From IMG/VR virus record IMGVR_UViG_3300005399_000003: a stretch of DNA of 64,000 nucleotides; one strand, 5' to 3'. Origin of the DNA: a virus (taxonomy: Duplodnaviria > Heunggongvirae > Uroviricota > Caudoviricetes). Each line of letters begins with the position of its first letter. Positions within the stretch are counted from its first letter, which is position 1. This document shows positions 1,239 to 37,240 of this stretch, piece by piece. The notes under the pieces were generated by a model. The model searched no databases and was not told where the DNA came from. It saw nothing but the letters and a program-made list of their open reading frames with translations. A program made the translations under genes and the position numbers.

Positions 1239-3161
1239 ATGAAATTCACACAGATCACCTTACAAAACTTCGGGCGCATCAAAGAGGCGACCGTGAAGCT
1301 ATCTGATCGGGGACTTGTCCTCATTCAGGGTCAAAACATGGATGGCTCCGCTGCGAACAGCAACGGTGCCGGCAAATCTACACTGGTCGAGGCAATCAGC
1401 TGGGTGCTCTACGGCAAGACCGCAAAGGGTGTCACGGGCGACAGCGTCATCAACCGCGAAGCGGGAAAGAACTGTGCCGTTCATCTGACAATCGAAGATG
1501 GTGACGAGAGCTACACGATTAGCCGCGGGCGCAAGCACAAGGTTCTCAAGTCGAAGCTGCATGTCACGACAGGTGACGGCAAAGTCGATCTGACAAAGGG
1601 CACCGACAAGCTGACACAGGATGTCGTCAACAAGATCATTGGCTGCCCCTATGATGTCTTCGTCGCCGCAGTCTACGCAGGGCAAGAAGCCGTGCCCGAT
1701 CTTCCCGGCATGGGTGACAAACAGCTCAAGCTCCTGATCGAAGAAGCCGCGGGCATCACTGAGCTTGAGGAAGCCTATGTGAAGGCCCGGGCCGACGCGC
1801 AAGACATCGGCGCTGAGTATGAGCGCGCCGCAGGGCGTGTCGAGCGTGCCGATACGGGTATTGAGCATGCCCGCATTCGCATGGAAGACGCCGAGCGCAG
1901 CGCGAAACGCTGGGAGGGTGAGCGTGATGCGCGCCTTATGGACATCGAAACCCAGGCTAAGACCTCGATCGAGGAAGCAAAGCGCCTGAAGGAAGCTTTG
2001 GGCAAAGACAGCCCGCTCAAGGAGCTGAACGAGCAGCTCGACAAGGCGATGGTCAGCAAGGGCAAGCTCGATCAGGAAGCTGAGACGGAAGACGATCACA
2101 AGACGGTGCTCAAAGACGCTGAGCGCGTGGTCACAGGCGTCGAAACCAAGATCGGGATGGTTAAGACGCAGCTCAAGAAGGCGAAGGACTACGAGAAGGA
2201 AGTCGAGGGCCAGATGGGTCAGCCCTGCGAAGCGTGCGGGCGGGACCATGACGAGACATCGCTGGAAAAGACCATCGAATACGCCAAGGGCAAAGTGCAA
2301 GAAGTCGCAAACGAAGCCCGCGCCCTGATCGCTGAGCTAAAGGATGCTCAGAGAAGCGCACAGAGCGCCCGTGAGAGCTTGGAGAAGTATCAAGCGGGGA
2401 TGACTGACCCAACGCACTTGGAAGCCCACATAGGGGCGCTGAGAGCGAAGATCAAAGAGCGCACCGATCAAGAAGCCGAAGTTGTGAGAGCGAAGAAGAC
2501 GGCTCAAGAGGCGCTTGACCTGCTCAAAGCTGAGCGGGCGCGGGAAAACCCCTATCTGCCTGAAATCAAGGATCGCAAGAGCGATCTGAGTGAGGCGGTT
2601 AAGAAGCGCACTGAGGCTGAGAAGGCCCGTAAAGAGATCATGGAGGAGGCGAAGATCGCCAAAGGGGTTGTTGAAGTGTTCAGCCCCAAAGGCGTGCGCG
2701 CCCGCATCCTTGATACCGTCACGCCCTATCTCAACGAGCGCACGGCGCACTATCTCGGCGTTCTCGGCGACGGGCGACTGCAAGCACGTTGGTCAACGAT
2801 CAGTCTGACAGCAAAGGGCGAGGCACGCGAGAAGTTCGCCATTGATGCATCCGATCTCGAAGACGGTGGCAACTTTGCTGACCTCTCGGGCGGGGAGAAG
2901 CGCCGGGTAAGATTGGCATGCGCCCTGGCACTGCAAGACTTGGTCGCAACCCGCGCTGCAAAGGCAATCGACTTGTTTGTCGCCGACGAGATCGACGCGG
3001 CGCTCGATGTCGCAGGGTTGGAGCGCTTGATGACGGTGCTTGAAGAGAAGGGCCGCGAGCGGGGCAGCGTGATCGTGATCAGCCACACGGATCTGAGAGA
3101 TTGGTGTTCCAATACGATCACGGTGCGCAGAGAGAATGGAACATCGAAGGTGATCGAATGA
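1239..3161 (+). CDS. SbcC/Rad50-like SMC-family ATPase (T4 gp46-like)
   Basis: Walker A GAGKST at the N-terminus and a long coiled-coil middle region. The C-terminus carries the signature LSGGEKRRV, Walker B LFVADEIDAALD and an H-loop SHT. Confidence 0.8.
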   Translation: MKFTQITLQNFGRIKEATVKLSDRGLVLIQGQNMDGSAANSNGAGKSTLVEAISWVLYGKTAKGVTGDSVINREAGKNCAVHLTIEDGDESYTISRGRKHKVLKSKLHVTTGDGKVDLTKGTDKLTQDVVNKIIGCPYDVFVAAVYAGQEAVPDLPGMGDKQLKLLIEEAAGITELEEAYVKARADAQDIGAEYERAAGRVERADTGIEHARIRMEDAERSAKRWEGERDARLMDIETQAKTSIEEAKRLKEALGKDSPLKELNEQLDKAMVSKGKLDQEAETEDDHKTVLKDAERVVTGVETKIGMVKTQLKKAKDYEKEVEGQMGQPCEACGRDHDETSLEKTIEYAKGKVQEVANEARALIAELKDAQRSAQSARESLEKYQAGMTDPTHLEAHIGALRAKIKERTDQEAEVVRAKKTAQEALDLLKAERARENPYLPEIKDRKSDLSEAVKKRTEAEKARKEIMEEAKIAKGVVEVFSPKGVRARILDTVTPYLNERTAHYLGVLGDGRLQARWSTISLTAKGEAREKFAIDASDLEDGGNFADLSGGEKRRVRLACALALQDLVATRAAKAIDLFVADEIDAALDVAGLERLMTVLEEKGRERGSVIVISHTDLRDWCSNTITVRRENGTSKVIE

Positions 3162-3661
3162 CTTTGAAGGAAGAGAAGCTGGCAGCCAAGAAGATCTCCG
3201 AGGAGCTGCTGAGTGAATACGGGATGGAGGTTCTCAAGGTTGCGCTGCTCGGTGTGAAGATCGACGTGCATCCGGGCGCCCATGTCACCTGCTACGACAA
3301 GGACAAGACAGGCCCCGGCGGGGTGCCTTCGCGCTTTTCCAAAGGGCTCGCGGTCAATGGTCAGGAGCTGATCATTAAGGATATTCGATCAGGCTCAAAG
3401 CATAAGGTCATCTTCATCTGCGAGATTGCGGATGGGGAGTTCTCAGGCATCTCCTTCTCGGGCAAGCCGATCCCTTTTGACCGAATGGGCATTGAGATTA
3501 CCGCCTATGATCTGCCCGCAACCGTCAAAGCCTTCGAGAACATCTTTCAGTGCATTCGAGATATGGATGAGGACGATCCGCGCTTCGACGACCCGCCCCA
3601 TGAGGCGCGGCCTGCTATCACTACAGAAGAACTCGCCGCCGAAGGCTTCGGGGCATGGTAA
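3158..3661 (+). CDS. hypothetical protein with C-terminal EGFGAW tail
   Basis: ATGA overlap with the upstream gene. No Mre11/SbcD phosphoesterase motifs are present. Confidence 0.5.
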   Translation: MTLKEEKLAAKKISEELLSEYGMEVLKVALLGVKIDVHPGAHVTCYDKDKTGPGGVPSRFSKGLAVNGQELIIKDIRSGSKHKVIFICEIADGEFSGISFSGKPIPFDRMGIEITAYDLPATVKAFENIFQCIRDMDEDDPRFDDPPHEARPAITTEELAAEGFGAW

Positions 3662-3671
3662 AGGAAAACAC

Positions 3672-4238
3672 ATGAGCAAGATCACCATTCTCGGACACGA
3701 CCCGAGCTTCGCCAACTGGGGCTTTGCCCTTGTCGATGTGGACGTTGCAACGCTAGAGATGCACCCCAAGCTGATTTATCTGCAAAAGACCGCGAAGTCG
3801 AAGAACAAGCAGGTGCGGGCCAGCTCCGACAAGCTGACCCGTGCGCGGCAGCTTCGGGAAACCTTTCTCAAGCTGGAAGCTAAGGCGCATATGAATGCGG
3901 CCGAGGTTCCCGAAGGCTCGAAGTCCGCGGCGGCCGCCACAGCTTTGGGCATCGCTACAGGGGTGCTTGCATGTCACAGCAAACCCTTGATCGAGGTCAA
4001 CCCTGTAGGGGTCAAGAAGGCGATTACGGGCTATTCCCAAGCCTCCAAAGAGGAGATGCTTGAGTGGGCCGTGGGGCTTTACCCTGATCTGCCGTGGAAG
4101 AAGGGTAAGGCGATGCTGGGCAAATATGCCGGGGAGTGCGAACACCTCGCCGATGCGTTGGCGATTGTCTACACTGCGATCCGTACCGAGCAGTTCAAGC
4201 AAGCCGCTGCCATGTTCTCTGTAGGCCACGCCGCATAA
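3672..4238 (+). CDS. RuvC-like Holliday junction resolvase
   Basis: N-terminal ILGHDPSFANWGFALVD and C-terminal EHLADALAIVYTA are RuvC-fold motifs. Confidence 0.65.
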   Translation: MSKITILGHDPSFANWGFALVDVDVATLEMHPKLIYLQKTAKSKNKQVRASSDKLTRARQLRETFLKLEAKAHMNAAEVPEGSKSAAAATALGIATGVLACHSKPLIEVNPVGVKKAITGYSQASKEEMLEWAVGLYPDLPWKKGKAMLGKYAGECEHLADALAIVYTAIRTEQFKQAAAMFSVGHAA

Positions 4239-4324
4239 TCTTCTTGCACCATATATAGTAAGTCATTACTGACTGGTGTATAGTTATAGGTCTGGTCAAT
4301 CGTAAATCCCGAAAGAGGAAACCC

Positions 4325-6730
4325 ATGAAGGATACAATCTCCCCCGCCGCAGAAGTGCGGGAATTTGCCCCCGGTATTGGTCGCGCTGTCGCTGATCGCA
4401 CTGTGGCCCGTAAGGTTATCAAACAGCACGATGGCGTGCAGTTTCACAACATCACCCTGCCGCGTGACGACAAGCAGTCATTGGACGCTCAAGTTGCCAA
4501 ACACGCCAAGAACGAAGGGCTGATCTACTCTGGCTATCACGTCAAGCACGGCAATGATCGCAACGTGGTGCTGACCCTCTATGTGACGGGCGAGGAACGT
4601 CGGGAGAACTGGGTTGAAGTGGCAGATCGGGTCGCACTGGGCAATGCATCCCTGAACCCCGCAGACTTTGATAGTGAGGTCGTGATCTTCGCAGATCACC
4701 TACGCCGCGCCACCACCCTCATGTCGGGCCGTCATCTACAGCACGGCGATGAGAACCAGAAGAACCGCCCCTTTGAGGTCTTTACGAACTGTTCGACCGC
4801 ACCTCTGACTTCCCTTTCCTTCTATCTGCTGCTCAACGGCTCGGGCGTTGGGCGAGACTACTCCGATGAAATGATGGTCGCTGACTGGGCCGACATGCCC
4901 ATCGTGGTTCCGGTGATCAGCGAAACCCACGCAGACGTCGCCTCTGGGCTCGCTGCGGGTTACTCGACTATCGCAGACGTTGAACACCTCTACGCTGATC
5001 GCAAGATCACCATCTTCAATGTCCCTGACAGCCGCGAAGGCTGGGCTGAGGGCGTCGCTAAGATGGAAGAGATGGCATATGAAAAGCGCCGCGATGAAGT
5101 GCTGGTGCTGGACTTCTCCGAAGTGCGCCCGAATGGCGCCCCGATCGGCGGCATGCAGAGCCGCCCAGCATCTGGCCCCGGCCCATTGATGTCCGCAATC
5201 GTCAAGATCGCAGCCCTGCGCGACGCAGGCATGCCTGCTTGGCGCTCCAATCTCTATGCTGACCACTACTGCGCCGCGGTTGTTCTGGTGGGCGGTGCGC
5301 GTCGTGCGGCTCGCATGTCGACAAAGTGGTGGATGGACCCCGGCGTTCTGGATTTCGTCAAGGTCAAGATGGGCGGGCGCTTCTTGTGGTCGTCAAACAA
5401 CTCCGTCACCGTCGATGCGCAGTTCTGGACATGCGTGAAAAACGCCACCACCGACAACGAGCATCCCGTCACAGAGCTGGACGAATGGGCGCTCAAGGTC
5501 TTCAACGCTGTCACCGAAGCCTCGTACAAAGACGGCACAGGCGAGCCCGGCTTCATCAATGTGGACATGTTCGACGCCAAAATCCCCAAGGGCGGTGTTG
5601 GTGAGATCAACTTCGACCACGTTCTCGATACGACCCGCTTGAACTTCACCTCTGGCTTTAAGGAGATGATGGTCGATGTGGTGGAGCGCGGTGCAAAGTC
5701 CAGCTTCCCGATGATCACCAACCCCTGCGGGGAAATTCAGCTGGTCAAATGGGGCGGCTACTGCGTGATTGCAGACGTTGTGCCTTATCACGCTGACAAT
5801 CTCGATGACGCCGAGCAGGCGTTCCGGGCCACAACCCGCGCTCTCATTCGTACCAACTTGATGAACCCGCTGTTTAAGGGCGAGGTCAAACGCACCAATC
5901 GCATCGGGGTTGGCATCACGGGTTTGCACGAGTTTGCCCTCAAGTTCTTCGGCTACGGTTGGCACGATCTTGTGGACGAGAAGAAGTCGCAGGACTTCTG
6001 GGATACAATTGCCCGCTTTGCGCGTGCCGTGAAGATCGAGGCGACGATCTATGCGGGCAAGCTAGGGGTTGCATCTCCACACACAGACACCACGATGAAG
6101 CCTGCGGGCACAACCTCCAAGCTCTTCGGGCTGACCGAGGGTGCGCATTTGCCTGCGATGCTGACCTACCTGCGGTGGGTGCAGTTCCGCTCTGACGATC
6201 CGTTGGTCGAAGAGTACAAGGCCAAGGGCTACCCGACCAAGACCCTGCGTAGCTATGATGGCACAACTGTCGTGGGCTTCCCAACTGCCCCGGCGATTGT
6301 CGAGCTGGCCCGCGAATTGGGTTTGGAAGATAAGCTGGTCACGGCCGCCGAAGCCACGCCCGAGGAGCAGTTTGAGTATCTGCGCTTGCTGGAGAAATAC
6401 TGGATCGCGGGTAACATGAAGGACGATACTGGCAATCAGATCTCCTACACGCTCAAGTATGACCCCGAGCAGGTCGACTTCGATGCTTACCGCGCCTCGA
6501 TGTTGAAGAACATGCCGACGGTGAAATGCGTCTCGGTGATGCCCCAGGTCGATACCACGGCCTATGAGTATCAGCCCGAGGAGCCTGTCACCAAAGAGGT
6601 CTTCGAGCGCATCGCGGCAGAGATTGCCAATGCCCAGACGGCACAGGTGATGGAAGAGAGTATCGACTACGAGCATCTTGCCTGCGATGCGGGCGGCTGC
6701 CCGATCTCCTTCGACAAAGACGGCATCTAA
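4325..6730 (+). CDS. nrdJ: ribonucleotide reductase, class II (adenosylcobalamin-dependent, NrdJ-like)
   Basis: NPCGEIQL active-site motif in an 801-aa single chain. No small subunit is encoded nearby. Confidence 0.8.
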   Translation: MKDTISPAAEVREFAPGIGRAVADRTVARKVIKQHDGVQFHNITLPRDDKQSLDAQVAKHAKNEGLIYSGYHVKHGNDRNVVLTLYVTGEERRENWVEVADRVALGNASLNPADFDSEVVIFADHLRRATTLMSGRHLQHGDENQKNRPFEVFTNCSTAPLTSLSFYLLLNGSGVGRDYSDEMMVADWADMPIVVPVISETHADVASGLAAGYSTIADVEHLYADRKITIFNVPDSREGWAEGVAKMEEMAYEKRRDEVLVLDFSEVRPNGAPIGGMQSRPASGPGPLMSAIVKIAALRDAGMPAWRSNLYADHYCAAVVLVGGARRAARMSTKWWMDPGVLDFVKVKMGGRFLWSSNNSVTVDAQFWTCVKNATTDNEHPVTELDEWALKVFNAVTEASYKDGTGEPGFINVDMFDAKIPKGGVGEINFDHVLDTTRLNFTSGFKEMMVDVVERGAKSSFPMITNPCGEIQLVKWGGYCVIADVVPYHADNLDDAEQAFRATTRALIRTNLMNPLFKGEVKRTNRIGVGITGLHEFALKFFGYGWHDLVDEKKSQDFWDTIARFARAVKIEATIYAGKLGVASPHTDTTMKPAGTTSKLFGLTEGAHLPAMLTYLRWVQFRSDDPLVEEYKAKGYPTKTLRSYDGTTVVGFPTAPAIVELARELGLEDKLVTAAEATPEEQFEYLRLLEKYWIAGNMKDDTGNQISYTLKYDPEQVDFDAYRASMLKNMPTVKCVSVMPQVDTTAYEYQPEEPVTKEVFERIAAEIANAQTAQVMEESIDYEHLACDAGGCPISFDKDGI

Positions 6731-11662: not shown

Positions 11663-11956
11663 ATGAGCAACAGCGTTCACGCAGTTCCTGATCCCAGCGA
11701 AGAGCTTGCCCGGAAGAGCAACGCAACGCTGGTGATGATCTTGGAGAAGATCGAGAGCACGGAGTGGTCTTATCAGCGCGGGGTTGATGCCCTCGATGTC
11801 CTTTGGGGCGTCTGCTCGGGCCTCGTTGATCGTGATCTGATGGACACGATCACGGCGACCCACACGCATTGCACCGCAGAGATCAAGGCAGGGCGAGAGT
11901 TTCACGGGGAACGCGCGTCTACACCACACGATCAAGATGAAATGGGAACTTGGTAA
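11663..11956 (+). CDS. hypothetical protein
   Basis: ORF with an upstream GAGAGA; TAATG junction downstream. Confidence 0.45.
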   Translation: MSNSVHAVPDPSEELARKSNATLVMILEKIESTEWSYQRGVDALDVLWGVCSGLVDRDLMDTITATHTHCTAEIKAGREFHGERASTPHDQDEMGTW

Positions 11957-12129
11957 TGAGCATCATTATGGCAACACGCTTTTCGAGCGAGGGCGGTGAT
12001 TCAGTCGCGATGAACGTCCCCGCGGATGTGCCATTCGCAAACATCGTCCATGCAATCCCTGTCCCGACACACGGGCTGGCGATTGTCATGGGCATGAAGT
12101 TTATCGCTCAGAAGGAGGCGGCAGCGTAA
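11956..12129 (+). CDS. hypothetical small protein (57 aa)
   Basis: TAATG overlaps at both ends. Confidence 0.35.
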   Translation: MSIIMATRFSSEGGDSVAMNVPADVPFANIVHAIPVPTHGLAIVMGMKFIAQKEAAA

Positions 12130-12704
12130 TGGCGACGTTTCTTTCCGCACTCGACTTCGAGACCACGGGTCTCGATTACATGAAGGGTGAGCGCATCATC
12201 GAGGCATGCGTTCAGGTCTGGCGGCTGGAAGATCGCAAGAAGGTCATCGACTGGACACAGCTGATCAACCCGCAAGGTCAGCGCATCAACCCACGCGCTC
12301 AGAAGGTGCATGGCATCTCTGCTGCTGATCTGATCGGCAAGCCCGTCTTCAAAGAGGTCGCGCCCAAGATCACGGCGATGCTCGGGCGCAGCAAAGCGGT
12401 TGTCACCCACAACGGCGAGTTCTTCGACCTTCCCTTTCTCGCCTATGAGCTGAGCAAGGTCGATGTCCCTTTGCCCAAGGGGCTTGAGTCCTTTGACACT
12501 ATGACTGGAGGAATGTTTGCGAGTTACGATCAAAAACCCCCGAGCCTCGGTGAACTGTGCTGGGCAATGGGGGTGAAGTACGACCCCGAGCAGGCACACG
12601 GAGCGTCATACGATGTTTCGATTATGATGGAGGCATTCTTTGCTGGTGTTGATTTGGGGTATTTCAATATCGACCATCTTCTCGAATCTTCTGTGGCTGC
12701 ATGA
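12129..12704 (+). CDS. DnaQ-like 3'-5' exonuclease (DEDDh)
   Basis: LDFETTGL (ExoI), HNGEFFDLPFL (ExoII) and HGASYD (ExoIII). Confidence 0.8.
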   Translation: MATFLSALDFETTGLDYMKGERIIEACVQVWRLEDRKKVIDWTQLINPQGQRINPRAQKVHGISAADLIGKPVFKEVAPKITAMLGRSKAVVTHNGEFFDLPFLAYELSKVDVPLPKGLESFDTMTGGMFASYDQKPPSLGELCWAMGVKYDPEQAHGASYDVSIMMEAFFAGVDLGYFNIDHLLESSVAA

Positions 12705-18467: not shown

Positions 18468-18944
18468 ATGATGAAGGCAGATTGGCACGCCCTGTTCTGT
18501 CCGCAGTGCAAAGAGAAGGCGTATCTGAAGGTCGACTTCATGGGCGTTTGCAGACTGACCCCGGACGGGTCGGAAGATGTTGGCCCTCATACTTGGGACG
18601 GTAATAGCGCCTGCATATGCACGACCTGCGGATTCAAAGGGGTCGCCTCGATGTTCGCCTTTGAAGCGAATGATGCGGGCATGGTTGATTTACAGCCCGA
18701 CGATGAAATCGCCTTCGAGGTCATCATCAGCGGTATGGTGACGAATGACCGTGATGAAGAAACCTTGGCGGCCGAAGCGGGCGTTGAGCCTCAGTTTTGG
18801 GACGTTGAGCTGCGGCGGGCAAACATGCGCTCGGGAGTGATCGACATCATTGCCGAGACTGAGAACATCGACAGCTATGATGTTGCCGATGCTGTCGCAC
18901 AGGGTCTGGAAGAAATGAGCGGAGCGGGGATAGAATGGGTGTAG
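18468..18944 (+). CDS. zinc-ribbon protein
   Basis: CPQC...CICTTCGF cysteine pairs. Confidence 0.5.
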   Translation: MMKADWHALFCPQCKEKAYLKVDFMGVCRLTPDGSEDVGPHTWDGNSACICTTCGFKGVASMFAFEANDAGMVDLQPDDEIAFEVIISGMVTNDRDEETLAAEAGVEPQFWDVELRRANMRSGVIDIIAETENIDSYDVADAVAQGLEEMSGAGIEWV

Positions 18945-19513
18945 CGCCAAAACAAGCGCTTGATGCGGTGACTGCGCATGCGATCAGCGAGTATCTGCGG
19001 CTTGAGCGGGATCCGGAATGGAAGGTCAATGATCGCGCCAGCTATGAGAACATCGACACCAAGCGCAGCGTCACGTCATTCAACAATCAGCTTGATGGCA
19101 AAAAGACCTACATCGTCATTGATCATCAAGGCAAAGCCGAGTGGGTGACGCATAACTTTGGCGCCGCGCTGCGCGAGACATGCAAATGCGGCAATGCCGA
19201 GCGCCAGCCCTTTGTCATTAAGGTCTACGACACATGGGCCGCTGTCACGCACACAGGCAGCATCCGGCACGGCAAGTTTCACAAGACGCTGGGGGAGGCG
19301 AAGCTTTCATGGAAGAAGGCACTGCCGCTCGCCCCGCGGCTGAATGAAGACGAGATTGCCGAAAACTCCCGCGAGTGGCTGAAGCGACGCATCGCCTTCG
19401 GGGAGCAGGTGATCGAAGAGGGCAAGAAGAAGGTCCGTGAAGAGGAACGTCGCAAGGCGCGTGAAGAGAAGCGGGTTGAGGAAATGATCGGAGAGGGTTT
19501 CGGCGCATGGTGA
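18935..19513 (+). CDS. hypothetical protein with C-terminal EGFGAW tail
   Basis: Identical C-terminal hexapeptide to the 3158-3661 product. Confidence 0.5.
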   Translation: MGVAPKQALDAVTAHAISEYLRLERDPEWKVNDRASYENIDTKRSVTSFNNQLDGKKTYIVIDHQGKAEWVTHNFGAALRETCKCGNAERQPFVIKVYDTWAAVTHTGSIRHGKFHKTLGEAKLSWKKALPLAPRLNEDEIAENSREWLKRRIAFGEQVIEEGKKKVREEERRKAREEKRVEEMIGEGFGAW

Positions 19514-20905: not shown

Positions 20906-21465
20906 GCAATCTGGAAGAACACGAAGCAGAACAGGCGCGCATCACGGCTGAATGCGAAGCGGGTGAATGCGACCACCCTGAGTGCCACGAGGCTGCCTAT
21001 GACATCACGATGTCCTGGCACGACCAGCCCGAGGGTGGGACGTTTCGCACGACTGTCATGGCGAAAGATAGCGACGATGCCGAAGCAAAGTCCCGCTACG
21101 AGATGGCTGATAGCTACTTCTCGGAAGCGGGGCGCTGGTGCCGGCACTGCGGGGAGTGCTCAATTGGAGATGGTCACGACGGCTTCTGTGGTGACTGTGC
21201 CGATCGCATTGAGAACGGCGAAGAGCTTGCCGACACAGATGCGGCGTTGGATAAGATCGTCGAGGAATACGCCCACCAATGGGACGTGATCGACTGCTTC
21301 AAGGTGAGTGATCATGTCGATGCCAATCTTGAGCATAGCAAAATCCACCGTGAGACGAACCGACAGCTCGGTGTGGCGCTCAATCTGCTGTCTCGGCTAA
21401 GGGATGGCTTGATGAATGCCGAGATTGCGGCCGAGGTCGATGCGTTGCTGAATGGAGAGCATTGA
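20902..21465 (+). CDS. cysteine-rich hypothetical protein
   Basis: CEAGECDHPECH and CRHCGECS...CGDC. Confidence 0.5.
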   Translation: MSNLEEHEAEQARITAECEAGECDHPECHEAAYDITMSWHDQPEGGTFRTTVMAKDSDDAEAKSRYEMADSYFSEAGRWCRHCGECSIGDGHDGFCGDCADRIENGEELADTDAALDKIVEEYAHQWDVIDCFKVSDHVDANLEHSKIHRETNRQLGVALNLLSRLRDGLMNAEIAAEVDALLNGEH

Positions 21466-21776
21466 TGGGCATAGGCGACGAGGAAGAGCCGTCAGTCATG
21501 GTGCCCTTGCGGATCTTGAGAAATGTCGCTCGGTCGATCAACAACCTCACAGAGATCATCGAAGAGAACATTGATCTGCCAGAGGGCGGGTGCAACTGCG
21601 CGGCTATAAGCATACCGCCGTGCTCCTTTTGCGAGAATGGCGGGCACATGACCCTCGATGTGGCGCGTGCCGGGCATGATGCCCATGAGATCAGGGTGTT
21701 CCTCGACAAAGCTCAGACGCCAACCCCAGCAGAGGTCGAGACTGAGGGTGACATGCAGGGCTTTGGTTCGTTCTAG
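21462..21776 (+). CDS. hypothetical protein
   Basis: ATGA overlap; contains CNC...CSFC. Confidence 0.5.
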   Translation: MMGIGDEEEPSVMVPLRILRNVARSINNLTEIIEENIDLPEGGCNCAAISIPPCSFCENGGHMTLDVARAGHDAHEIRVFLDKAQTPTPAEVETEGDMQGFGSF

Positions 21777-26949: not shown

Positions 26950-27294
26950 ATGAGCAAGTTTACCGGACTCACGCTGAACAAGTCTCAGGTCGAGTTCATG
27001 CGTGATGAAGCGATGGCATGGATCGACGTTCAGAAGAGCGATCATCGCTTCGAGGCAGACGCCCTGCGAAATGAGGAGCCCGGCTATCTCTTCGACGTGG
27101 CAAGAATGTTCACGACCCTCGGGGGTATTCGGAGCATTCCCGAAGGTGGGTCGATGCTGATCGACAGCAACAGCGCCTATTCCCTGCTCTGCTACGTCGA
27201 GGACGAAGAGACATTCGAGCAGTACATCGCGGATGGGGAAATCTCCCGCGAGGACATTACAGATTACCGCAATCAACTGGAGGCAGCAGCATGA
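26950..27294 (+). CDS. acidic hypothetical protein
   Basis: GAAAGGGAAGACCCATG leader. Confidence 0.5.
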   Translation: MSKFTGLTLNKSQVEFMRDEAMAWIDVQKSDHRFEADALRNEEPGYLFDVARMFTTLGGIRSIPEGGSMLIDSNSAYSLLCYVEDEETFEQYIADGEISREDITDYRNQLEAAA

Positions 27295-27737
27295 GCATGC
27301 ACCCACACGCACCCGTCTTTCCAAACAGCATGCAGGAGATCTTCGACAAGGCCCTGGCGCATATTCGCACCACCCGCGAGCCTTCGATGCAGAAGGTGGA
27401 GAAATCTGCGGAATCCGCCTCCTGTTCCTATCGGGGCTGTGGCTGCGCGATGGCCCCTTTTGCCCCGAGCGAGGAAGCGAAGGGCGAATGGGATGGTTAC
27501 GGCAGCATTGGCTGCGTTATCAGCGCCTTCGGGTACAAAGGCGCTGCGCTGCTTGAGGAAGAAGAACTGGATGAACTGGCGTGGGACATTCAGAAAGCCC
27601 ATGACGCCCCTGCCATCAGCAGCACAAGGTATGTCGATGCCGGGAAGACATTCATGGAGATGTTTGAAAGCAGCATGAAGAACATCGCCACCAACTATAA
27701 TCTCACATACACCCCCGAGGAGGCAACTCATGGCTGA
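27291..27737 (+). CDS. hypothetical protein
   Basis: ATGA overlap. Confidence 0.5.
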   Translation: MSMHPHAPVFPNSMQEIFDKALAHIRTTREPSMQKVEKSAESASCSYRGCGCAMAPFAPSEEAKGEWDGYGSIGCVISAFGYKGAALLEEEELDELAWDIQKAHDAPAISSTRYVDAGKTFMEMFESSMKNIATNYNLTYTPEEATHG

Positions 27738-28083
27738 TCAACATCGCTGGCATCTGCCCATCACTGGCACCCGTGACATCGCATTCACTGGCACAGAGCT
27801 GACAAAAGGCGTTGGCAAGTGGGATGTGAAGCTGGAGGCATTCGTCCCTGTTCTGCACGATCAACATCACCTGAACCATCACGTCTACAGAACGAAGGCA
27901 AATCAGCTGATCTTCTTCTGCACACGTCCATACGAAGATGGCGCCGGCACTCGTAAGGGCGCTCGCATCTATCCCGCCAACAACAAGCCCAGCATCGCGG
28001 CGCTCTATGACTTCTTCGGGGATGAACCGCCCGTCGAGGCATTCGAGGCGATCGGGCATAGTCACATTCACGAGGTTGCATAA
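27730..28083 (+). CDS. hypothetical protein
   Basis: 8-nt overlap with the upstream gene. Confidence 0.5.
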   Translation: MADQHRWHLPITGTRDIAFTGTELTKGVGKWDVKLEAFVPVLHDQHHLNHHVYRTKANQLIFFCTRPYEDGAGTRKGARIYPANNKPSIAALYDFFGDEPPVEAFEAIGHSHIHEVA

Positions 28084-28301
28084 TGGACGACTTCATCAAC
28101 TGGATCGCGGACAAATATTCAGTCAGCACGGTAATCCTCTTTGCAGTGCTGGCAGTCTCGGCATTGGCAATGCTGATCGTCATGCTGCTCTCAACGGTCG
28201 ATCACTTCTTCGGTGACTTCGCAGCTATTATGACACTGCTGGTCATGCTCGCGGCATTCCCTGTCTATGTGCTGGTCAAATACCTGCGGGGCAAAGGCTG
28301 A
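28083..28301 (+). CDS. small membrane protein (2 TM)
   Basis: TAATG overlap; hydrophobic. Confidence 0.45.
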   Translation: MDDFINWIADKYSVSTVILFAVLAVSALAMLIVMLLSTVDHFFGDFAAIMTLLVMLAAFPVYVLVKYLRGKG

Positions 28302-28519
28302 TGTCCCGCGACCTCAAGAAGCGACTGCTGCAAATCCCTCCGGGCTGGGTCGACACTCAGCTCGGCAAGGAAGCCCATGATCGCATCGTCGAGCTGGAAG
28401 AGGCACTCGCCCCATTCGCCAAACAAGCTGATGGACGCAAGAGCAAGAAGATCGGTGGCTCGGTCTGCTTCGGGCAGATCACCCTGATCAAGGCACGCAA
28501 AGCCCTCAAGGGATACTGA
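28301..28519 (+). CDS. hypothetical protein
   Basis: TGATG overlap. Confidence 0.45.
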   Translation: MSRDLKKRLLQIPPGWVDTQLGKEAHDRIVELEEALAPFAKQADGRKSKKIGGSVCFGQITLIKARKALKGY

Positions 28520-28585
28520 CATGGAAGAATATCTCAAGGCAGAACTCAGCTACAGTGGCAAAGCAGGGTGCGGGGAGAACAAGGT

Positions 28586-28930
28586 ATGATCTTAGGTGAC
28601 AACATCGCTCAAAACATGGGCCCGGGTTGGTCGTCAGAGGACGGGCAATACTACGACTTCGAAGGCAAAGGCTGGGTGAAGCTCTACGAGGACAATGATT
28701 ACTGGATGATTGATCTCATTCAGGTCAATCCCGAGCATCGTCGCAAGGGCGTTGGCACCCGCATGCTCAAGGACTTGCTAAGTCTCGACAGCAAACCCGT
28801 TCATCTTCAGGCAGACCCAACTGATCCAAGCATCCCAACGCATGTGCTCGTGGCTTGGTACGAGAAACACGGCTTTGTCGTCACTCCCGGCACTGATCAC
28901 TGGATGATCTACACACCCAAGGGATACTAA
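28586..28930 (+). CDS. GNAT-family N-acetyltransferase
   Basis: IQVNPEHRRKGVGTRMLKDLL matches GNAT motif A. Confidence 0.55.
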   Translation: MILGDNIAQNMGPGWSSEDGQYYDFEGKGWVKLYEDNDYWMIDLIQVNPEHRRKGVGTRMLKDLLSLDSKPVHLQADPTDPSIPTHVLVAWYEKHGFVVTPGTDHWMIYTPKGY

Positions 28931-28933
28931 GGC

Positions 28934-29041
28934 ATGATCAGGCATCAACTACGCAACATGGTCATCGTAATCCTGGCCATGATCATCGGCATCACTGTAG
29001 GCATAGCGCTCGTAAAGACACTGCCTGGCACTCTACTCTAG
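28934..29041 (+). CDS. small hydrophobic peptide (35 aa)
   Basis: MIRHQLRNMVIVILAMIIGITVGIALV is a single TM helix. Confidence 0.25.
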   Translation: MIRHQLRNMVIVILAMIIGITVGIALVKTLPGTLL

Positions 29042-29044
29042 CTA

Positions 29045-29390
29045 GAAATCCCCTCACCACAACAGACCCCAAAAATAGCCCCTCAGAAGCCCCAAAACGC
29101 AATCAGCACCCCCAACCCCCGACAGACCCTCCAACGCCCCACAGACCCCCTCACAGCGCAGCGCACGCAACGCCTAACCCCAACAAAGCCCGCGCAACCC
29201 GCAATCAATCCCAACCCCAGAGGAAAACTACCCGCAAGCCCATCAGACCCCGCAGCGCCAAGAACCCTCGGAGCAACGATCAAACCAATCCTGAAACGTA
29301 AGACAAACAGACCTCGAACTTTCGACCCGACAAGAGCACGACCAAGAGCACAGCCACCCTCGGGAACGCCAGTAGGGAAAGGAAAGGGAA
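29045..29390 (+). repeat. C-rich/G-poor low-complexity tract (CCCCAA/ACCC repeats), non-coding
   Basis: About 340 bp with almost no G on the + strand. No ORF with a start codon is present. Confidence 0.6.
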
Positions 29391-29575
29391 AAGCCTATAC
29401 ACACAAGGCTATGATGCTCTCGGATAGGGAAAGGTCAGGGGTGAGACTATAGAGGGATAGAAGGGAGGACATACGGGAAAGGAGACTGATCTGCCTATAG
29501 GGGAAAGGAGGGGTTTTTGCCTATAGACACATGTACGGTAGGGAAAGGAGAGCTTTGTGCCTAGAAACTCTCCCT
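29380..29575 (+). repeat. direct repeats GGGAAAGG...(T)GCCTATAG, 4-5 copies
   Basis: Units at about 29387, 29440, 29500 and 29545. Related units occur at 30700, 31620 and 32300. Confidence 0.55.
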
Positions 29576-29687
29576 ATAAGACGCCGATAAGTGGGCCTGC
29601 GCCTAACCAAACCACCAATCCCAGCCTTGCCACCGCCTGAACTATCCGCGCCACTTCCAAGCCATCGCCAGTCCATCTCGACCATGG

Positions 29688-29750
29688 CCCCACCATGGAC
29701 GTGCCATGGACGTGCCATGGCGTTGGCGTGTTGCCGTGACCATGGCGACA
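29688..29750 (+). promoter_or_regulatory. array of 5 CCATGG palindromes upstream of AGTCA-N4-TGACT element
   Basis: ACCATGGCC, ACCATGGAC, GCCATGGAC, GCCATGGCG and ACCATGGCG within about 65 bp. Confidence 0.5.
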
Positions 29751-29818
29751 AGTCATCGTTGACTGTCCAGCTCTGCGGGGTGATTGTGGGTTTGTTCAAG
29801 CATGAAAGGGAAAGCTCA

Positions 29819-30199
29819 ATGGCAAAGAACACCCCCAAGACGCCCATCACATTCAGTGTGGCAGACATCAGAGCGGTCGTAGACACAGGGATGGCGTATC
29901 GCACAGCGAAGGGCGACCCTGAATTGGCACTTGCCCGCATCAATGGTCTTCAGCGTGAGATCAATGAGATCGTTGGTACATACGAGAACAACGATGGCAG
30001 CGTGAAGCGCAATCATGGACTGTCGCGGGATCAGTTGTTGGAGCGCATTGCGCGTAGCTGCTTTCTGTTGGCAGAGCGCGTCTACATCATGCAGCACTCC
30101 CAAGGTAAGGGCTGTGACATGATTGATCTGCGGCGGGTCGTGAATGACAACTATGACAAGGCAATCAAGCGTGTGGGCTTGGCCCCACAACCCGCTTGA
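29819..30199 (+). CDS. hypothetical protein
   Basis: CATGAAAGGGAAAGCTCAATG leader. Confidence 0.5.
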   Translation: MAKNTPKTPITFSVADIRAVVDTGMAYRTAKGDPELALARINGLQREINEIVGTYENNDGSVKRNHGLSRDQLLERIARSCFLLAERVYIMQHSQGKGCDMIDLRRVVNDNYDKAIKRVGLAPQPA

Positions 30200-33744: not shown

Positions 33745-33832
33745 TGCCCCGCTAGCGCCCCTCTGAGGGGCGTTAGCATCCCCGCAAGGGGGTCGGGTAG
33801 GGAATGACATTAGCGCCCCTCAGAGGGGCTTA
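33745..33832. terminator. convergent-transcription terminator hairpins
   Basis: GCTAGCGCCCCTC-TGA-GAGGGGCGTTAGC and TTAGCGCCCCTCAGAGGGGCT, between + strand and - strand gene blocks. Confidence 0.45.
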
Positions 33833-34273: not shown

Positions 34274-34330
34274 GATGGTCTTTCGAGATGGATGGAAATT
34301 GATTCAGGAAGGTCGCAAAATTGTGGACGC

Positions 34331-34819: not shown

Positions 34820-34831
34820 GGGTCTTCCTTC

Positions 34832-35059
34832 TCAGGGCAGAACGACGCTTGGGTCCAGCAGCAGGTCGATTTGCAGGTCGATGATGGTGATCTGACGCTC
34901 GATCTCCGGGACAGCGCGCGCCAGCCCCGGAAGGTTTGCGAAATCGTGGGTGTCTTTGAGGATCTCCACGGTGCGCTTGAGGCAGCAAACCTCGTCTTTG
35001 AGCTTGACCGCGCGCCAGATGCGGCTTGGGTTCGTGATGATGAACAACAGGGCTTCCAT
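34832..35059 (-). CDS. hypothetical protein
   Basis: ATG overlaps the stop of the upstream HAD gene (TGATG). Confidence 0.4.
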   Translation of the reverse strand: MEALLFIITNPSRIWRAVKLKDEVCCLKRTVEILKDTHDFANLPGLARAVPEIERQITIIDLQIDLLLDPSVVLP

Positions 35060-35598
35060 CAGTAGTTGCCCTCCGCGACCTGACAGCAGAGCAGCCCCTT
35101 CGCGCGCCACATGGCGGTGTCGTCTTTGCGATCTTCAAAGGCGAGCTTGGGATCGAAACCGTCCATGCGGGCTTGCTCCAGCAGTTCTCCTTTGACGATG
35201 TGACTTGGGCGACGATCACCATCCTTGCGCATGTAGATGATCGGGCCGACGACTTTGCCTTGGTAGCTCGTCTGCTTCATCCAGTAATGCCATGCGTAGA
35301 CGCGCACCGGGCAGTATTGGGTCATCAGCCAATTGTAGGTGACTTCACGCTGCGCCTCGGGTCGCCCGGTGATGAAGATCACGCGATGGCCCTCGTAGAG
35401 CATGGCTTCAAGCAGGCGCCAGGTTTGCTCGATCGGCGCATCCTTTGCCACAGCGTCATCGCTCAAGAAGGCATCCCAGTCCTTTCGGAAGGGTTGTTCA
35501 TAGGCGATGTTCGGATCGGGGGTGATGTGATGAAGACGGTGGCTGGCGTTTGCCAGCGTCCCGTCGATGTCGAAGACGATGTCCATGATGCGGCTCAC
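35059..35598 (-). CDS. HAD-family polynucleotide 3'-phosphatase, homolog of T4 Pnk C-terminal domain (no kinase domain)
   Basis: VFDIDGTL (motif I), VIFITGR (motif II) and a C-terminal AFEDRKDDTAMWRAKGLLCCQVAEGNY. The last closely parallels T4 Pnk [27 protein letters not shown]. Start is GTG 35598 or ATG 35586. Confidence 0.7.
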   Translation of the reverse strand: MSRIMDIVFDIDGTLANASHRLHHITPDPNIAYEQPFRKDWDAFLSDDAVAKDAPIEQTWRLLEAMLYEGHRVIFITGRPEAQREVTYNWLMTQYCPVRVYAWHYWMKQTSYQGKVVGPIIYMRKDGDRRPSHIVKGELLEQARMDGFDPKLAFEDRKDDTAMWRAKGLLCCQVAEGNY

Positions 35599-36116: not shown

Positions 36117-36167
36117 GTTGTGCTCCTGTTAGTCAGTTGTGACTTACTTTAGCAGGCAAATGAAGTC

Positions 36168-36479
36168 TCACCAACTGCCAAATTCAGGGCCGGAACTCTC
36201 GATGTCGATCAGGCGCTGGATCTCCGTCCACTCTGCGATCTGAAAGCGCTCCCAGGCAGATCGGGTCAGATAGACAGGCTGCGGGTTGATGAAATCAGGG
36301 GCGGCGATCAGAAACCCGCGGCTGTGCAGGGTGGCGCCGGCGTCGATGTCTGTGACATTGCGCACCATGAAGCCATCGGACTGCATGTAGACGGCATAGT
36401 CCTTCAGCTCGGGCATGGTCATGCTGTCAACAATGCGACGCAGGAGCCCGCCGGGGGTTCTGTCGACCTTTTCTACCAT
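36168..36479 (-). CDS. hypothetical protein with C-terminal EFGSW tail
   Basis: ATGGTAG overlap with the upstream gene. Confidence 0.5.
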   Translation of the reverse strand: MVEKVDRTPGGLLRRIVDSMTMPELKDYAVYMQSDGFMVRNVTDIDAGATLHSRGFLIAAPDFINPQPVYLTRSAWERFQIAEWTEIQRLIDIESSGPEFGSW

Positions 36480-37240
36480 TCACCGAAGGCCTCTTGCTGT
36501 TCAGCGCTGTCGAGGGTGAAGTCCTCTAGCTGCGAGACAAGCCTCTCTTCAGGAGAGGGTGGCAGCTCAGCTTTCTTCACCGGGATTTCAGTGCCGTCGC
36601 TGAGAACATAGACCAGCTGTCCGTCGGCTTTCCATAACAACTCGCCATCGGTCTCTTTGATGCTGATCTTTTGCTCAACCTGTTTGCTGGTATTGTGCCA
36701 TGCTTGAAGCACGTCAGATTCGATCTTAGCCGCGGAAATGGAGCCGCTTGCGATGGTTGAGCCTTCCAGCGCTATCGCCTTGCCCCACTCTGCCTCCATT
36801 TCCTTCATCTTATCTCTCGTAAGGATGCCGCCGGAGGCCTTGGGTGCGAAAGTGCCCATCCCGAGATGCGCGTCGAGCGCCTCTCTGGTAATGTCCCTCT
36901 TTGCCTTCATAAGATCAGCCTTGAGGAGGGTGTGATCCTTCCGCTCTTGCTCGACCATGGCGGTCTTTTCGCCTATGCTCGCTTTGTGGAATGCATCCTC
37001 CAGCTTCTTCGCGGCGGCGGTGAAGTCCTCGAAGCTCTTTGCTGCATCCCCAATCGACGATCCGGGCAGCTTTGTCCATTTCATTTCTGGAAACGTGGTC
37101 TTCACGGGCTCTTTTGGCTTGAGTGCTTCAGGCATATCCTTTGAGGCAGGCTTATCCGTCGAGAAGGGTTTGTCCAAACCACCCGGGCGACCTAGCAGTG
37201 CGCCGATGCCGTGTTTGATCTTTTGATTGACATAGCTCAT
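36473..37240 (-). CDS. hypothetical protein with C-terminal AFGEW tail
   Basis: 255-aa lysine/glutamate-rich protein. Confidence 0.5.
   Translation of the reverse strand: MSYVNQKIKHGIGALLGRPGGLDKPFSTDKPASKDMPEALKPKEPVKTTFPEMKWTKLPGSSIGDAAKSFEDFTAAAKKLEDAFHKASIGEKTAMVEQERKDHTLLKADLMKAKRDITREALDAHLGMGTFAPKASGGILTRDKMKEMEAEWGKAIALEGSTIASGSISAAKIESDVLQAWHNTSKQVEQKISIKETDGELLWKADGQLVYVLSDGTEIPVKKAELPPSPEERLVSQLEDFTLDSAEQQEAFGEW

What the first reader, a model, noticed from the sequence alone, without database searches (positions are those of the whole stretch)
3158..37240. Four unrelated proteins share a C-terminal F-G-x-W-COOH tail
3158-3661 ends ...AAEGFGAW. 18935-19513 ends ...IGEGFGAW. 36168-36479 ends ...SSGPEFGSW. 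36473-37240 ends ...QQEAFGEW. None of the other roughly 110 proteins in the window ends this way. A conserved acidic-then-FGxW C-terminus on otherwise dissimilar proteins looks like a short linear docking motif. It resembles the C-terminal tails that recruit partners to SSB, clamps or proteases, and implies a common hub protein.
Basis: seen in the sequence. Interest (0 to 1): 0.65.

Follow-up and report, generated by a model that had tools for sequence, protein, structure and literature searches.

The report
Shared C-terminal docking tail on phage proteins
Several unrelated small proteins of this marine phage, and 2 to 11 proteins in each of its distant relatives, end in the same short peptide (aromatic-Gly-x-aromatic), which evolution has kept intact; it looks like a common address tag that plugs diverse accessory proteins into one partner that I could not identify.

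Summary
Four unrelated orphan proteins end in F-G-x-W-stop. These are the only four FGxW in about 100 proteins (expected 0.004 at C-termini, P about 7e-12). A fifth protein ends FGSF and a sixth MGTW.

The tail is under purifying selection. Six remote homologues of protein 2 (28-42% identical) all end G-[F/C]-G-[A/G]-W, while the helix just before it varies freely. The one diverged relative that carries proteins 3 and 4 keeps both tails.

The tail is clade-wide. In distant relatives (portal 40-48% identical) 2-11 mutually unrelated proteins per genome carry it. Counts are RHEph10 7, V1VFA-S 6, nickie about 11, SSU5 2 and Stenotrophomonas phage BUCTxx99 11, nine of them consecutive genes. The consensus is [P/N/Q]-[E/P]-[G/N]-[F/Y]-G-x-[W/F]-COOH.

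An AlphaFold model of protein 2 shows a globular domain, a 51-residue single helix and a disordered tail. The few recognisable cargo domains are DNA nick or end modules (BRCT twice, WGR, Gam-like).

A nucleotide-level explanation (embedded ribosome-binding site plus start codon) was tested and rejected as a general cause.

The best reading is a short linear docking motif that tethers accessory proteins to a common receptor, probably in phage DNA replication or repair. The receptor is not identified. The tail does not fit a canonical beta-clamp motif. I found no published description.

The parts
3158..3661 (+). Tail protein 1 (167 aa, orphan), ends ...AAEGFGAW; FGAW codons at 3647-3658. It sits between SbcC (1239-3161) and the RuvC-like gene (3672-4238).
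   Evidence: Translation. No Pfam or PHROG match. The only homologue is its own 90% cluster, P0004, with the same tail. The same SbcC-to-RuvC slot holds a tail-bearing protein in RHEph10, V1VFA-S, SSU5 and nickie.
18935..19513 (+). Tail protein 2 (192 aa, orphan), ends ...IGEGFGAW; FGAW codons at 19499-19510. The next gene's ATG (19507) lies inside the Ala-Trp codons.
   Evidence: Six remote homologues all end G[F/C]G[A/G]W. AF2 model with pLDDT 90.9: domain 1-132, single helix 138-188, disordered tail. No fold match.
36168..36479 (-). Tail protein 3 (103 aa, orphan), ends ...SGPEFGSW; FGSW codons at 36171-36182.
   Evidence: The orthologue in the diverged contig L001 keeps the tail. No same-strand gene start within 50 nt downstream.
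36473..37240 (-). Tail protein 4 (255 aa, orphan), ends ...QQEAFGEW; FGEW codons at 36476-36487. It overlaps the start of protein 3 by 7 nt and lies in the minus-strand operon headed by the DEAD/ResIII helicase (38796-40286).
   Evidence: Homologue P0003 (64% identical) ends ...SSEAFGGW, with different residues just upstream of the tail.
21465..21776 (+). Probable fifth member (103 aa, orphan), ends ...GDMQGFGSF (the Phe-terminal flavour that dominates in the rhizobiophages); FGSF codons at 21762-21773.
   Evidence: No Pfam or PHROG match. No orthologue found in the relatives held.
11663..11956 (+). Possible sixth member (97 aa, orphan), ends ...DQDEMGTW; MGTW codons at 11942-11953. Membership is uncertain because Met replaces the aromatic residue at -3.
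   Evidence: Orthologues in L041 and L045 are 83 aa, stop 14 residues earlier and have no tail, so the tail sits on a lineage-specific C-terminal extension.

Best explanation
The tail is a short linear motif at the extreme C-terminus. Its consensus is [P/N/Q]-[E/P]-[G/N]-[F/Y]-G-x-[W/F]-COOH. It sits on a flexible end behind a charged linker or a long single helix. It most likely acts as a common docking peptide: the two aromatic side chains, held by the invariant Gly, and usually the free carboxylate would insert into a pocket on one receptor. In that way many unrelated, fast-evolving accessory proteins would be tethered to the same machine.

Shown here: the motif exists; it is enriched far beyond chance; it is conserved by selection at the peptide level; it is spread over non-homologous proteins; it is present throughout the SSU5 / RHEph10 / nickie / BUCTxx99 phage supergroup; and it is gained and lost on individual protein families.

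Inferred: the tail binds a single receptor, and that receptor belongs to the phage DNA replication, recombination or repair apparatus. The reasons for the second inference are as follows. Two tail-bearing gene slots recur in the primase operon and the SbcCD-RuvC operon. The only recognisable cargo domains are DNA nick or end modules (BRCT twice, WGR, Gam-like). The motif persists in phages of Salmonella, Pseudomonas, Rhizobium, Stenotrophomonas and a marine host, so the receptor is either phage-encoded or a very conserved host protein.
For: Statistics: 4 observed against 0.0036 expected; window 5 vs 0.088; V1VFA-S 6 vs 0.19; RHEph10 7 vs 0.17; SSU5 2 vs 0.105.

Selection. Six homologues at 28-42% identity keep G-F/C-G-A/G-W, and Gly188, Gly190 and Trp192 are invariant while the preceding helix varies. 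Searches show the tails of proteins 3 and 4 kept in a diverged relative.

Peptide-level rather than DNA-level conservation. The Gly and Phe codons vary synonymously, and about half of 32 tail genes have no downstream start within 50 nt.

Unrelated carriers: (no BLAST similarity once the tail is trimmed, including nine consecutive BUCTxx99 genes).

Clade-wide distribution.

Gain and loss.

Anatomy: domain, 51-residue helix, disordered tail; the 40 residues before the tail are richer in E/K/R, P=8e-7, and less hydrophobic, P=5e-9, than in 641 other proteins.

Cargo domains: WGR, BRCT twice, Gam-like by PHROG.

Syntenic slots.

Precedent with identical anatomy: the T4 proteins gp43, gp55 and gp33 (PMC2988020).
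Against: No receptor was identified and no binding was shown. Almost all cargo proteins are orphans, so the DNA-metabolism context rests on four recognisable domains and two syntenic slots. In BUCTxx99 those two slots lack the tail. In nickie the motif is followed by one extra small residue, so the free carboxylate on the aromatic residue is not strictly required. About 35 kb of this phage's genome was not available to me. The tail does not match any described docking motif that I could check.
Confidence: 0.6

Rival explanations
1. The tail is a C-terminal degron or protease/unfoldase-targeting tag. The common receptor would be an AAA+ protease or its adaptor, host or phage, and the tail would time the removal of early accessory proteins.
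For: C-terminal tags are the usual way substrates and adaptors reach AAA+ machines (established knowledge: ssrA/ClpXP, the SspB XB tail, HslU and HbYX tails). In BUCTxx99 a classical AAA ATPase (PF00004) directly precedes the nine-gene tail array. V1VFA-S also encodes one. nickie and RHEph10 encode an HslV-like peptidase.
Against: Neither the classical AAA ATPase nor the HslV-like peptidase is universal. phmmer over six-frame ORFs finds no classical AAA in RHEph10, nickie, SSU5 or the held part of this phage. HslV occurs only in nickie and RHEph10. The tail does not resemble the known LAA-type degron. An invariant Gly flanked by two aromatic residues and kept across hosts suggests a specific pocket rather than a loose hydrophobic degron.
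Confidence: 0.15
2. The tail is an address tag for a protein shell. It would target the proteins to the interior or surface of the procapsid, for packaging and co-injection, or to another phage-built compartment, in the manner of encapsulin cargo-loading peptides or the C-terminal Trp of McdB.
For: Capsid, portal and scaffold genes are universal in the group. McdB proteins are extremely divergent yet keep an invariant C-terminal Trp, which has been proposed to recruit them to the carboxysome shell, and those authors note C-terminal Trp in capsid-assembly proteins (PMC8359340). End-binding cargo (Gam-like, WGR, BRCT) would make sense if co-injected with linear DNA (inference).
Against: All tail genes lie in early or non-structural operons, and none lies in the structural or lysis regions of any genome. 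No virion proteomics was found. The tail does not resemble known encapsulin targeting peptides (own knowledge).
Confidence: 0.08
3. The tail is a divergent clamp-binding motif, and the hub is the host beta sliding clamp, which these DnaE-encoding phages presumably use.
For: These phages encode a Pol III alpha-type polymerase, and no clamp gene is annotated or detected in them. The beta clamp is the classic bacterial hub for terminal peptides, and the area around its pocket is basic and favours acidic flanks or a free carboxylate (PMC11139829). The clamp is conserved across Proteobacteria.
Against: Clamp-binding motifs are defined as Q-phi-x-[L/M]-[F/L] or Q-phi-x-[L/M]-x-[F/L]. The tail has no Gln, and it has Gly where Leu/Met is required. 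Replacing the terminal Phe by Trp weakens clamp binding.
Confidence: 0.05
4. The shared ending is a by-product of nucleotide-level signals for translational coupling: a Shine-Dalgarno-like GAGG/GGAG, a spacer, and an ATG overlapping the stop codon.
For: In the protein 2 family the final GCA-TGG-TGA contains the ATG of the next gene. In nickie the extra last residue mostly comes from GCA-TGA or TCA-TGA start-stop overlaps. Several rhizobiophage tails are followed by a start at -1 to +3.
Against: About half of the 32 tail genes have no same-strand start within 50 nt downstream. The Gly and Phe codons vary synonymously while the peptide is fixed. Phe-terminal tails cannot hold an ATG. No other overlapping gene pairs in these genomes produce this peptide.
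Confidence: 0.02
5. The tails are shared by chance or by common descent, meaning the proteins are cryptic paralogues.
For: Two adjacent RHEph10 proteins (gp127 and gp126) are weakly similar (E=2e-7).
Against: P-values range from 1e-8 to 1e-12 per genome. No similarity remains between carriers after the tail is trimmed. The carriers include different known folds (BRCT, WGR). The tail appears on a lineage-specific extension of one family.
Confidence: 0.01

Closest known systems
T4-type clamp-binding C-termini (gp43 polymerase, gp55, gp33 docking on the gp45 sliding clamp)
   Same: Unrelated phage proteins share a short hydrophobic/acidic peptide at the extreme C-terminus. The peptide is joined to the body by a divergent linker of variable length, and it serves to tether them to one hub; the tails are interchangeable (PMC2988020). 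This is the same anatomy as found here.
   Different: No gp45-type clamp or clamp loader is annotated or detected in this phage group. The polymerase is DnaE-type and does not itself carry the tail. The carriers are 2-11 small accessory proteins, mostly orphans, rather than core enzymes.
T7 gp2.5 (SSB) and gp4 (helicase-primase) acidic C-terminal tails ending in Phe, docking on gp5 DNA polymerase
   Same: Two unrelated replication proteins share a tail whose terminal aromatic residue is essential, and it binds a basic patch on one partner (PMC12339929).
   Different: The T7 tails are long acidic runs. Here the conserved element is aromatic-Gly-x-aromatic with a modest acidic flank. There is no T7-type polymerase. 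This group's gp32-like SSBs end in plain acidic tails without the motif.
Bacterial SSB C-terminal tip (DDDIPF) and beta-clamp-binding motifs (QLxLF)
   Same: Terminal peptides with a C-terminal aromatic or hydrophobic residue and a free carboxylate are read by a pocket, which organises many partners around one hub (own knowledge for SSB; PMC11139829, for the clamp).
   Different: For SSB the polarity is reversed: one hub carries the tail and many partners carry pockets. The clamp consensus is not matched.
McdB proteins of carboxysome positioning systems
   Same: The proteins are extremely divergent, low in hydrophobicity and often coiled-coil, and they keep an invariant aromatic residue (Trp) within the last four residues. 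It has been proposed to mediate recruitment to a common target (PMC8359340).
   Different: There is one McdB per system, not many. The ending is V/I-W-P-D rather than aromatic-G-x-aromatic. The target is a microcompartment shell, and the partner is a ParA-type ATPase.
Plant NOI/RIN4 motif PxFGxW (AvrRpt2 cleavage site)
   Same: It has the same letters: several tails read P-x-F-G-x-W, for example window protein 3 (GPEFGSW). This was the only literature hit for FGxW.
   Different: The plant motif is internal, lies in plant membrane-associated proteins and is read by a plant-pathogen protease. I see no evident connection and treat it as coincidence.

Membership tests
T4-type sliding-clamp-binding C-terminal tails | Highly similar hydrophobic/acidic peptide at the extreme C-terminus of otherwise unrelated phage proteins | tested here: met
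T4-type sliding-clamp-binding C-terminal tails | Tail joined to the protein body by a divergent, flexible or extended linker | tested here: met
   Alignment A2, AF2 model, composition test.
T4-type sliding-clamp-binding C-terminal tails | Phage encodes a gp45/PCNA-type clamp and its loader, which act as the receptor | tested here: not met
   None is annotated in five relatives. Pfam and PHROG scans of the conserved unknowns give no clamp. Profile searches against PDB are negative. About 35 kb of this phage was not seen.
T4-type sliding-clamp-binding C-terminal tails | The replicative polymerase itself carries the tail | tested here: not met
   The DnaE proteins of RHEph10, V1VFA-S and nickie end ...VIDLLD...VADCLA and ...ADIFSV.
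Bacterial beta-clamp-binding motif (CBM) | Q-phi-x-[L/M]-[F/L] or Q-phi-x-[L/M]-x-[F/L] | tested here: not met
   The consensus of 54 tails has Gly (52 of 54) where L/M is required, no conserved Gln, and Trp as the commonest last residue. The definition, and the finding that replacing the terminal Phe by Trp weakens clamp binding, come from PMC11139829.
SSB C-terminal tip | Located on the single-strand DNA-binding protein; an acidic run ending in I-P-F | tested here: not met
   The group's SSB is gp32-like (PF08804). It ends ...LADLDSI...DDLLED or ...ELDNLV. The tail carriers are not SSBs.
T7 gp2.5/gp4-type acidic tails | Long acidic tail with an essential C-terminal aromatic residue that binds a T7-type polymerase/thioredoxin | tested here: inconclusive
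   The terminal aromatic residue is present, and the pre-tail region is more acidic than background (19% vs 15%). There is no poly-acidic run and no T7-type polymerase; the polymerase is DnaE-type.
ssrA-like ClpXP C-degron | C-terminal L-A-A or A-A-COOH | tested here: not met
   The tails end in W or F. Separately, many other proteins of these phages do end in Ala-Ala.
HbYX / HslU-type tails docking on proteasome-like peptidases | A proteasome- or HslV-like peptidase is present as the receptor in every genome that has the tails | tested here: not met
   An HslV-like gene is found only in nickie and RHEph10. It is absent from the ortholog clusters shared by three or more genomes and from the window and its flanks.
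Encapsulin cargo-loading peptide / capsid targeting | Carriers are found inside the shell or virion | not testable with these tools
   This needs virion or procapsid proteomics. All tail genes lie outside the structural modules.
Any docking short linear motif (generic) | Direct binding of the peptide to a defined receptor | not testable with these tools
   No complex prediction or experiment was available.

The most novel reading that the evidence does not exclude
A whole supergroup of roughly 100-120 kb siphoviruses, which includes the clinically relevant SSU5-like phage-plasmids, uses a universal C-terminal heptapeptide as an address tag. The tag routes up to eleven unrelated, rapidly turning-over accessory proteins per genome (stand-alone BRCT, WGR and Gam-like modules and many orphans) to a receptor that is none of the known hub types. 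That receptor could be a new organiser of the phage replication/repair factory, or the procapsid. New cargo would be recruited simply by acquiring the tail, as the 14-residue extension in 11663-11956 suggests.
Probability: 0.3. Interest if true: 0.85.

Novelty: new variant of a known kind. Interest (0 to 1): 0.72.

Why it matters
The tail links dozens of orphan early proteins, across phages of Salmonella, Klebsiella, E. coli, Pseudomonas, Rhizobium, Stenotrophomonas and marine hosts, into one functional set. These proteins are otherwise unannotatable.

It offers an immediate experimental lever. One peptide pull-down should reveal the receptor. The tail can then be used to list, delete or retarget all of that receptor's clients.

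If the receptor is part of the replisome or repair machinery, this would be a second, independent invention of the toolbelt principle known from the T4 clamp.

If the receptor is a protease or the capsid, it would be a new phage protein-sorting signal.

The result also shows that short linear motifs can be found in phage genomes from sequence alone, by looking for recurrent C-termini.

Tried and rejected
1. Near-identity DNA searches of the window against deposited phages gave no match.
2. A tblastn of the four proteins, concatenated, against deposited phages gave no match.
3. Using the helicase as an anchor in IMG/VR returned no relatives.
4. An exact back-translated EGFGAW-stop scan of IMG/VR returned 10 hits. 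Eight of them have TGG in place of the stop codon, and none lies at the end of a convincing gene. That exact flavour is therefore not widespread.
5. More general tail patterns cannot be scanned, because a collection scan needs 14 unambiguous bases.
7. The single metagenome scan, with a RecA fragment, returned only unrelated low-GC loci without tails. About 35 kb of this genome, probably the DnaB / primase / ligase / DnaE / SSB module, stayed unseen.
8. Xanthomonas phage JGB6 was dropped because its genes are fragmented by frameshifts.
9. The Pelagibacter and other weak portal hits are small genomes that do not belong to the group.
10. The large terminase subunit is too widespread to delimit the group.
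12. A single-sequence AF2 model of protein 1 was unusable, with pLDDT 40.
13. The conserved unknowns tested as possible clamp-like hubs (phrog_5235, phrog_2500, phrog_2058) have no relative among solved structures.
14. A classical AAA ATPase and an HslV-like peptidase were considered as the universal receptor and rejected, because neither is universal.
15. The idea that 18468-18944 (...EAEWV) is a degenerate tail was rejected, because that ending is conserved in its orthologues.
16. The plant PxFGxW motif was considered and set aside as coincidence.

Full report
**Observation.** 3158-3661 (+) ends AAEGFGAW, 18935-19513 (+) ends IGEGFGAW, 36168-36479 (-) ends SGPEFGSW and 36473-37240 (-) ends QQEAFGEW. 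I built a codon-usage-trained gene set of 100 proteins. In it FGxW occurs four times, and every time it forms the last four residues. From amino-acid composition 0.0036 C-terminal occurrences are expected (Poisson P=7e-12). Among 641 mechanical stop-to-stop frames of at least 50 codons, only these four end this way. The tail codons differ between the genes (GGC TTC GGG GCA TGG; GGT TTC GGC GCA TGG; GAA TTT GGC AGT TGG; GCC TTC GGT GAA TGG), so no DNA repeat is involved. Two further proteins have near-variants: 21465-21776 ends MQGFGSF and 11663-11956 ends DQDEMGTW. None of the six has a Pfam match, and the only PHROG hit is one marginal match (E=0.002) for 18935-19513. With the last 12 residues removed they show no similarity to one another.

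**What the genome is.** The window has no near relative among deposited phages. Its portal is 40-48% identical to those of a group of 100-120 kb siphoviruses. That group comprises the Salmonella, Klebsiella and E. coli SSU5-like phage-plasmids, Rhizobium phages (RHEph10, V1VFA-S), Pseudomonas phage nickie and its kin, and Stenotrophomonas and Xanthomonas phages. The window derives from marine metagenome contigs of 95-112 kb. Gene order is shared with the relatives: DEAD helicase (minus strand), two ParB-like genes, terminase, portal, capsid, tail, and then SbcD, SbcC, RuvC-like, RNR, dUTPase, DnaQ-like exonuclease and RtcB. The relatives also carry DnaB, primase, ATP-dependent ligase, a CobS/CobT-like pair, a Pol III alpha-type polymerase, a gp32-like SSB, FEN and RecA. 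In this phage that module lies in the roughly 35 kb I could not retrieve.

**Selection on the tail.** An exhaustive HMMER search with protein 2 found six true homologues at 28-42% identity. All of them align to their very last residue, and all end G-[F/C]-G-[A/G]-W. In the alignment, Gly188, Gly190 and Trp192 are invariant, while the roughly 45-residue charged segment before them is freely variable. The only homologue of protein 4 (64% identical) ends SSEAFGGW where the window has QQEAFGEW. On the same diverged contig the orthologue of protein 3 keeps PEFGSW.

**Distribution in relatives.**
- Rhizobium phage V1VFA-S has six annotated CDSs that end [F/Y]-G-x-F.
- RHEph10 has seven, with an extended shared ending Y-A-x-(N/H)-P-x-F-G-R-F.
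- SSU5 has two that end W-A-T-W.
- nickie has about eleven, most with one extra small residue after the motif (for example PENFGSWA, PEDFGGWS, DFGGWA).
- Stenotrophomonas phage BUCTxx99 has eleven that end Y-G-x-W. Nine of them are consecutive genes at 27312-30074 with no detectable similarity to one another.
- The metagenomic relatives that carry protein 2 homologues hold further carriers.

I measured enrichment against the internal rate of the same pattern in each proteome. The excess is 5 vs 0.088 in the window (P=4e-8), 6 vs 0.19 in V1VFA-S, 7 vs 0.17 in RHEph10 (P=7e-10) and 2 vs 0.105 in SSU5. Aligned on the last aromatic residue, 54 tails give the consensus [P/N/Q]-[E/P]-[G/N]-[F31/Y16/W4]-G(52/54)-x-[W35/F18/Y1]. 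Both W and F endings occur within single genomes (nickie and the window), so the receptor presumably accepts either.

**Carriers are unrelated, and tails come and go.** Within each genome the carriers lack similarity once the tail is trimmed; one weak RHEph10 pair is the exception. Three RHEph10 / V1VFA-S orthologous pairs keep the tail. Two gene slots carry a tail-bearing protein in four relatives, although the protein bodies have diverged beyond BLAST recognition. One slot is the gene after primase. The other is the gene between SbcC and the RuvC-like gene, and window protein 1 occupies this second slot. In BUCTxx99 these two slots lack the tail. The window's MGTW ending sits on a 14-residue extension that is absent from the orthologues.

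**Anatomy.** The AF2 model of protein 2 (7-sequence alignment, pLDDT 90.9, pTM 0.80) shows a compact alpha/beta domain (residues 1-132), a single 51-residue helix (138-188) and a low-confidence final stretch that contains the tail. Across 32 carriers in five genomes, residues -46 to -7 are richer in E/K/R (28% vs 20%, P=8e-7) and poorer in hydrophobic residues (25% vs 33%, P=5e-9) than in 641 other proteins. The domain of protein 2 has no assignable fold.

**Cargo.** Only four carriers have recognisable domains:
- RHEph10 gp034 is a WGR-domain protein.
- Two members of the BUCTxx99 array are BRCT domains.
- nickie gp010 matches the PHROG family 'Mu Gam-like end protection'.

All four are modules associated with DNA nicks, ends or damage. 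The replication enzymes themselves (DnaE, SSB, RecA, DnaB, primase, ligase, FEN) do not carry the tail.

**The nucleotide-signal rival.** The tail's DNA could in principle be a ribosome-binding site plus an overlapping start codon for the next gene. In the protein 2 family, GCA-TGG-TGA does contain the next gene's ATG. nickie's extra last residue mostly reflects GCA-TGA or TCA-TGA overlaps. However, the Gly and Phe codons vary synonymously, and about half of 32 tail genes have no same-strand start within 50 nt downstream. The general conservation is therefore at the peptide level.

**The receptor.** I could not identify it.
- The tail fails the definition of a beta-clamp-binding motif.
- No clamp gene is annotated or detected in the group, and the conserved unknown families have no relative among solved structures.
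- A classical AAA ATPase heads the BUCTxx99 array and occurs in V1VFA-S, but it is absent elsewhere.
- The HslV-like peptidase is confined to nickie and RHEph10.
- The universal non-structural candidates are DnaB, primase, ligase, CobS/CobT-like, DnaE, phrog_2058, gp32-like SSB, FEN, RecA, SbcCD, RuvC-like, AAA_28, DnaQ-like exonuclease, phrog_5235 and the DEAD helicase. Conserved host proteins are also candidates.

**Comparison with known systems.**
- The closest precedent is T4. There gp43, gp55 and gp33 share an interchangeable hydrophobic/acidic C-terminal epitope on a divergent linker, and it docks on the gp45 clamp (PMC2988020).
- T7 gp2.5 and gp4 share an acidic tail with an essential terminal Phe that binds gp5 (PMC12339929).
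- McdB proteins are an example of extreme divergence with an invariant C-terminal Trp, which has been proposed to mediate recruitment to a shell (PMC8359340).
- Literature searches found no description of this tail in SSU5-like or related phages.

**Verdict.** The feature is real. It is a selected, clade-wide C-terminal short linear motif carried by many unrelated accessory proteins. The docking-motif interpretation is well supported in kind. The identity of the hub is open. I favour a replication or repair partner (moderate confidence) over a protease or a shell. I classify it as a new variant of a known kind of system.

Noticed in passing
window-wide, e.g. 3672-4238 (...VGHAA), 11956-12129 (...KEAAA), 12129-12704 (...SSVAA), 26950-27294 (...LEAAA), 38796-40286 minus strand (...FKLAA); also V1VFA-S and RHEph10: There is a second C-terminal oddity: an excess of proteins that end in Ala-Ala. 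Counts are window 6/100 (expected 1.1, P=9e-4), SSU5 5/110, V1VFA-S 25/147 and RHEph10 24/158 (expected about 2), but nickie 0/159. In the rhizobiophages many core enzymes end this way, including ligase, RecA, SbcC and FEN in both and the sigma factor in RHEph10. Ala-Ala-COOH resembles ssrA/ClpXP-type degrons. I have no explanation for it.
   Followed up: partly
L049 (Stenotrophomonas phage BUCTxx99) 27312-31523, minus strand: Nine consecutive, mutually unrelated small genes all end in Y-G-x-W. Two of them are stand-alone BRCT domains. The array is immediately preceded by a 481-aa classical AAA ATPase (PF00004). It lies downstream of the DEAD helicase, in the same operon position as window proteins 3 and 4.
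   Followed up: partly
window 14706-16058 (+), 35059-35586 (-), 37513-38103 (-), 38121-38738 (-), 38796-40286 (-): There is a possible RNA/DNA-end repair set: an RtcB ligase, a HAD/PNKP-like phosphatase, an HD phosphohydrolase, a small P-loop kinase-like protein and a DEAD/ResIII helicase. Tail proteins 3 and 4 sit inside the same minus-strand operon.
   Followed up: no
window 20394-20711 (+): This 105-aa protein ends ...EFLFFGWASS. That ending is conserved in its orthologues (L041, L046...FFGWASS). It looks superficially like the tail, but Gly and Trp are adjacent and three residues follow. It is probably part of a folded domain and not a member of the set.
   Followed up: partly
window 19499-19513 and 36473-36487: The start codons of the downstream genes lie inside the tail codons. 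ATG 19507 lies within GCA-TGG of protein 2. The ATG of protein 3 lies within GAA-TGG of protein 4 (a 7-nt overlap). In these two cases the last residues are therefore under double constraint.
   Followed up: yes
L013 6790-6999 (about 0.5 kb upstream of window position 1): The upstream flank of the same phage encodes a 69-aa protein with a Pfam RMF (ribosome modulation factor) hit. It also encodes an RNase H, a DUF4942 methyltransferase-like protein and SbcD.
   Followed up: no
window 4325-6730 (+): The ribonucleotide reductase here is class II (B12-dependent; it has the RNR-II insertion domain). V1VFA-S is annotated with class Ia alpha and beta subunits at the same position, and RHEph10, nickie and SSU5 also carry separate large and small subunits there.
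   Followed up: no
window 17135-18004 (+): This 289-aa protein (phrog_5235) is conserved in all five genomes. In the relatives it lies just downstream of the DnaQ-like exonuclease. Its function is unknown, its C-terminal half looks like a helix-turn-helix by eye, and it has no relative among solved structures.
   Followed up: partly
L048 (Xanthomonas phage JGB6, OQ436456.1): The deposited genome has most large genes split into several CDSs; DnaE, for example, is in five pieces. This suggests uncorrected indel errors, so the record is unreliable for any analysis of protein termini.
   Followed up: no
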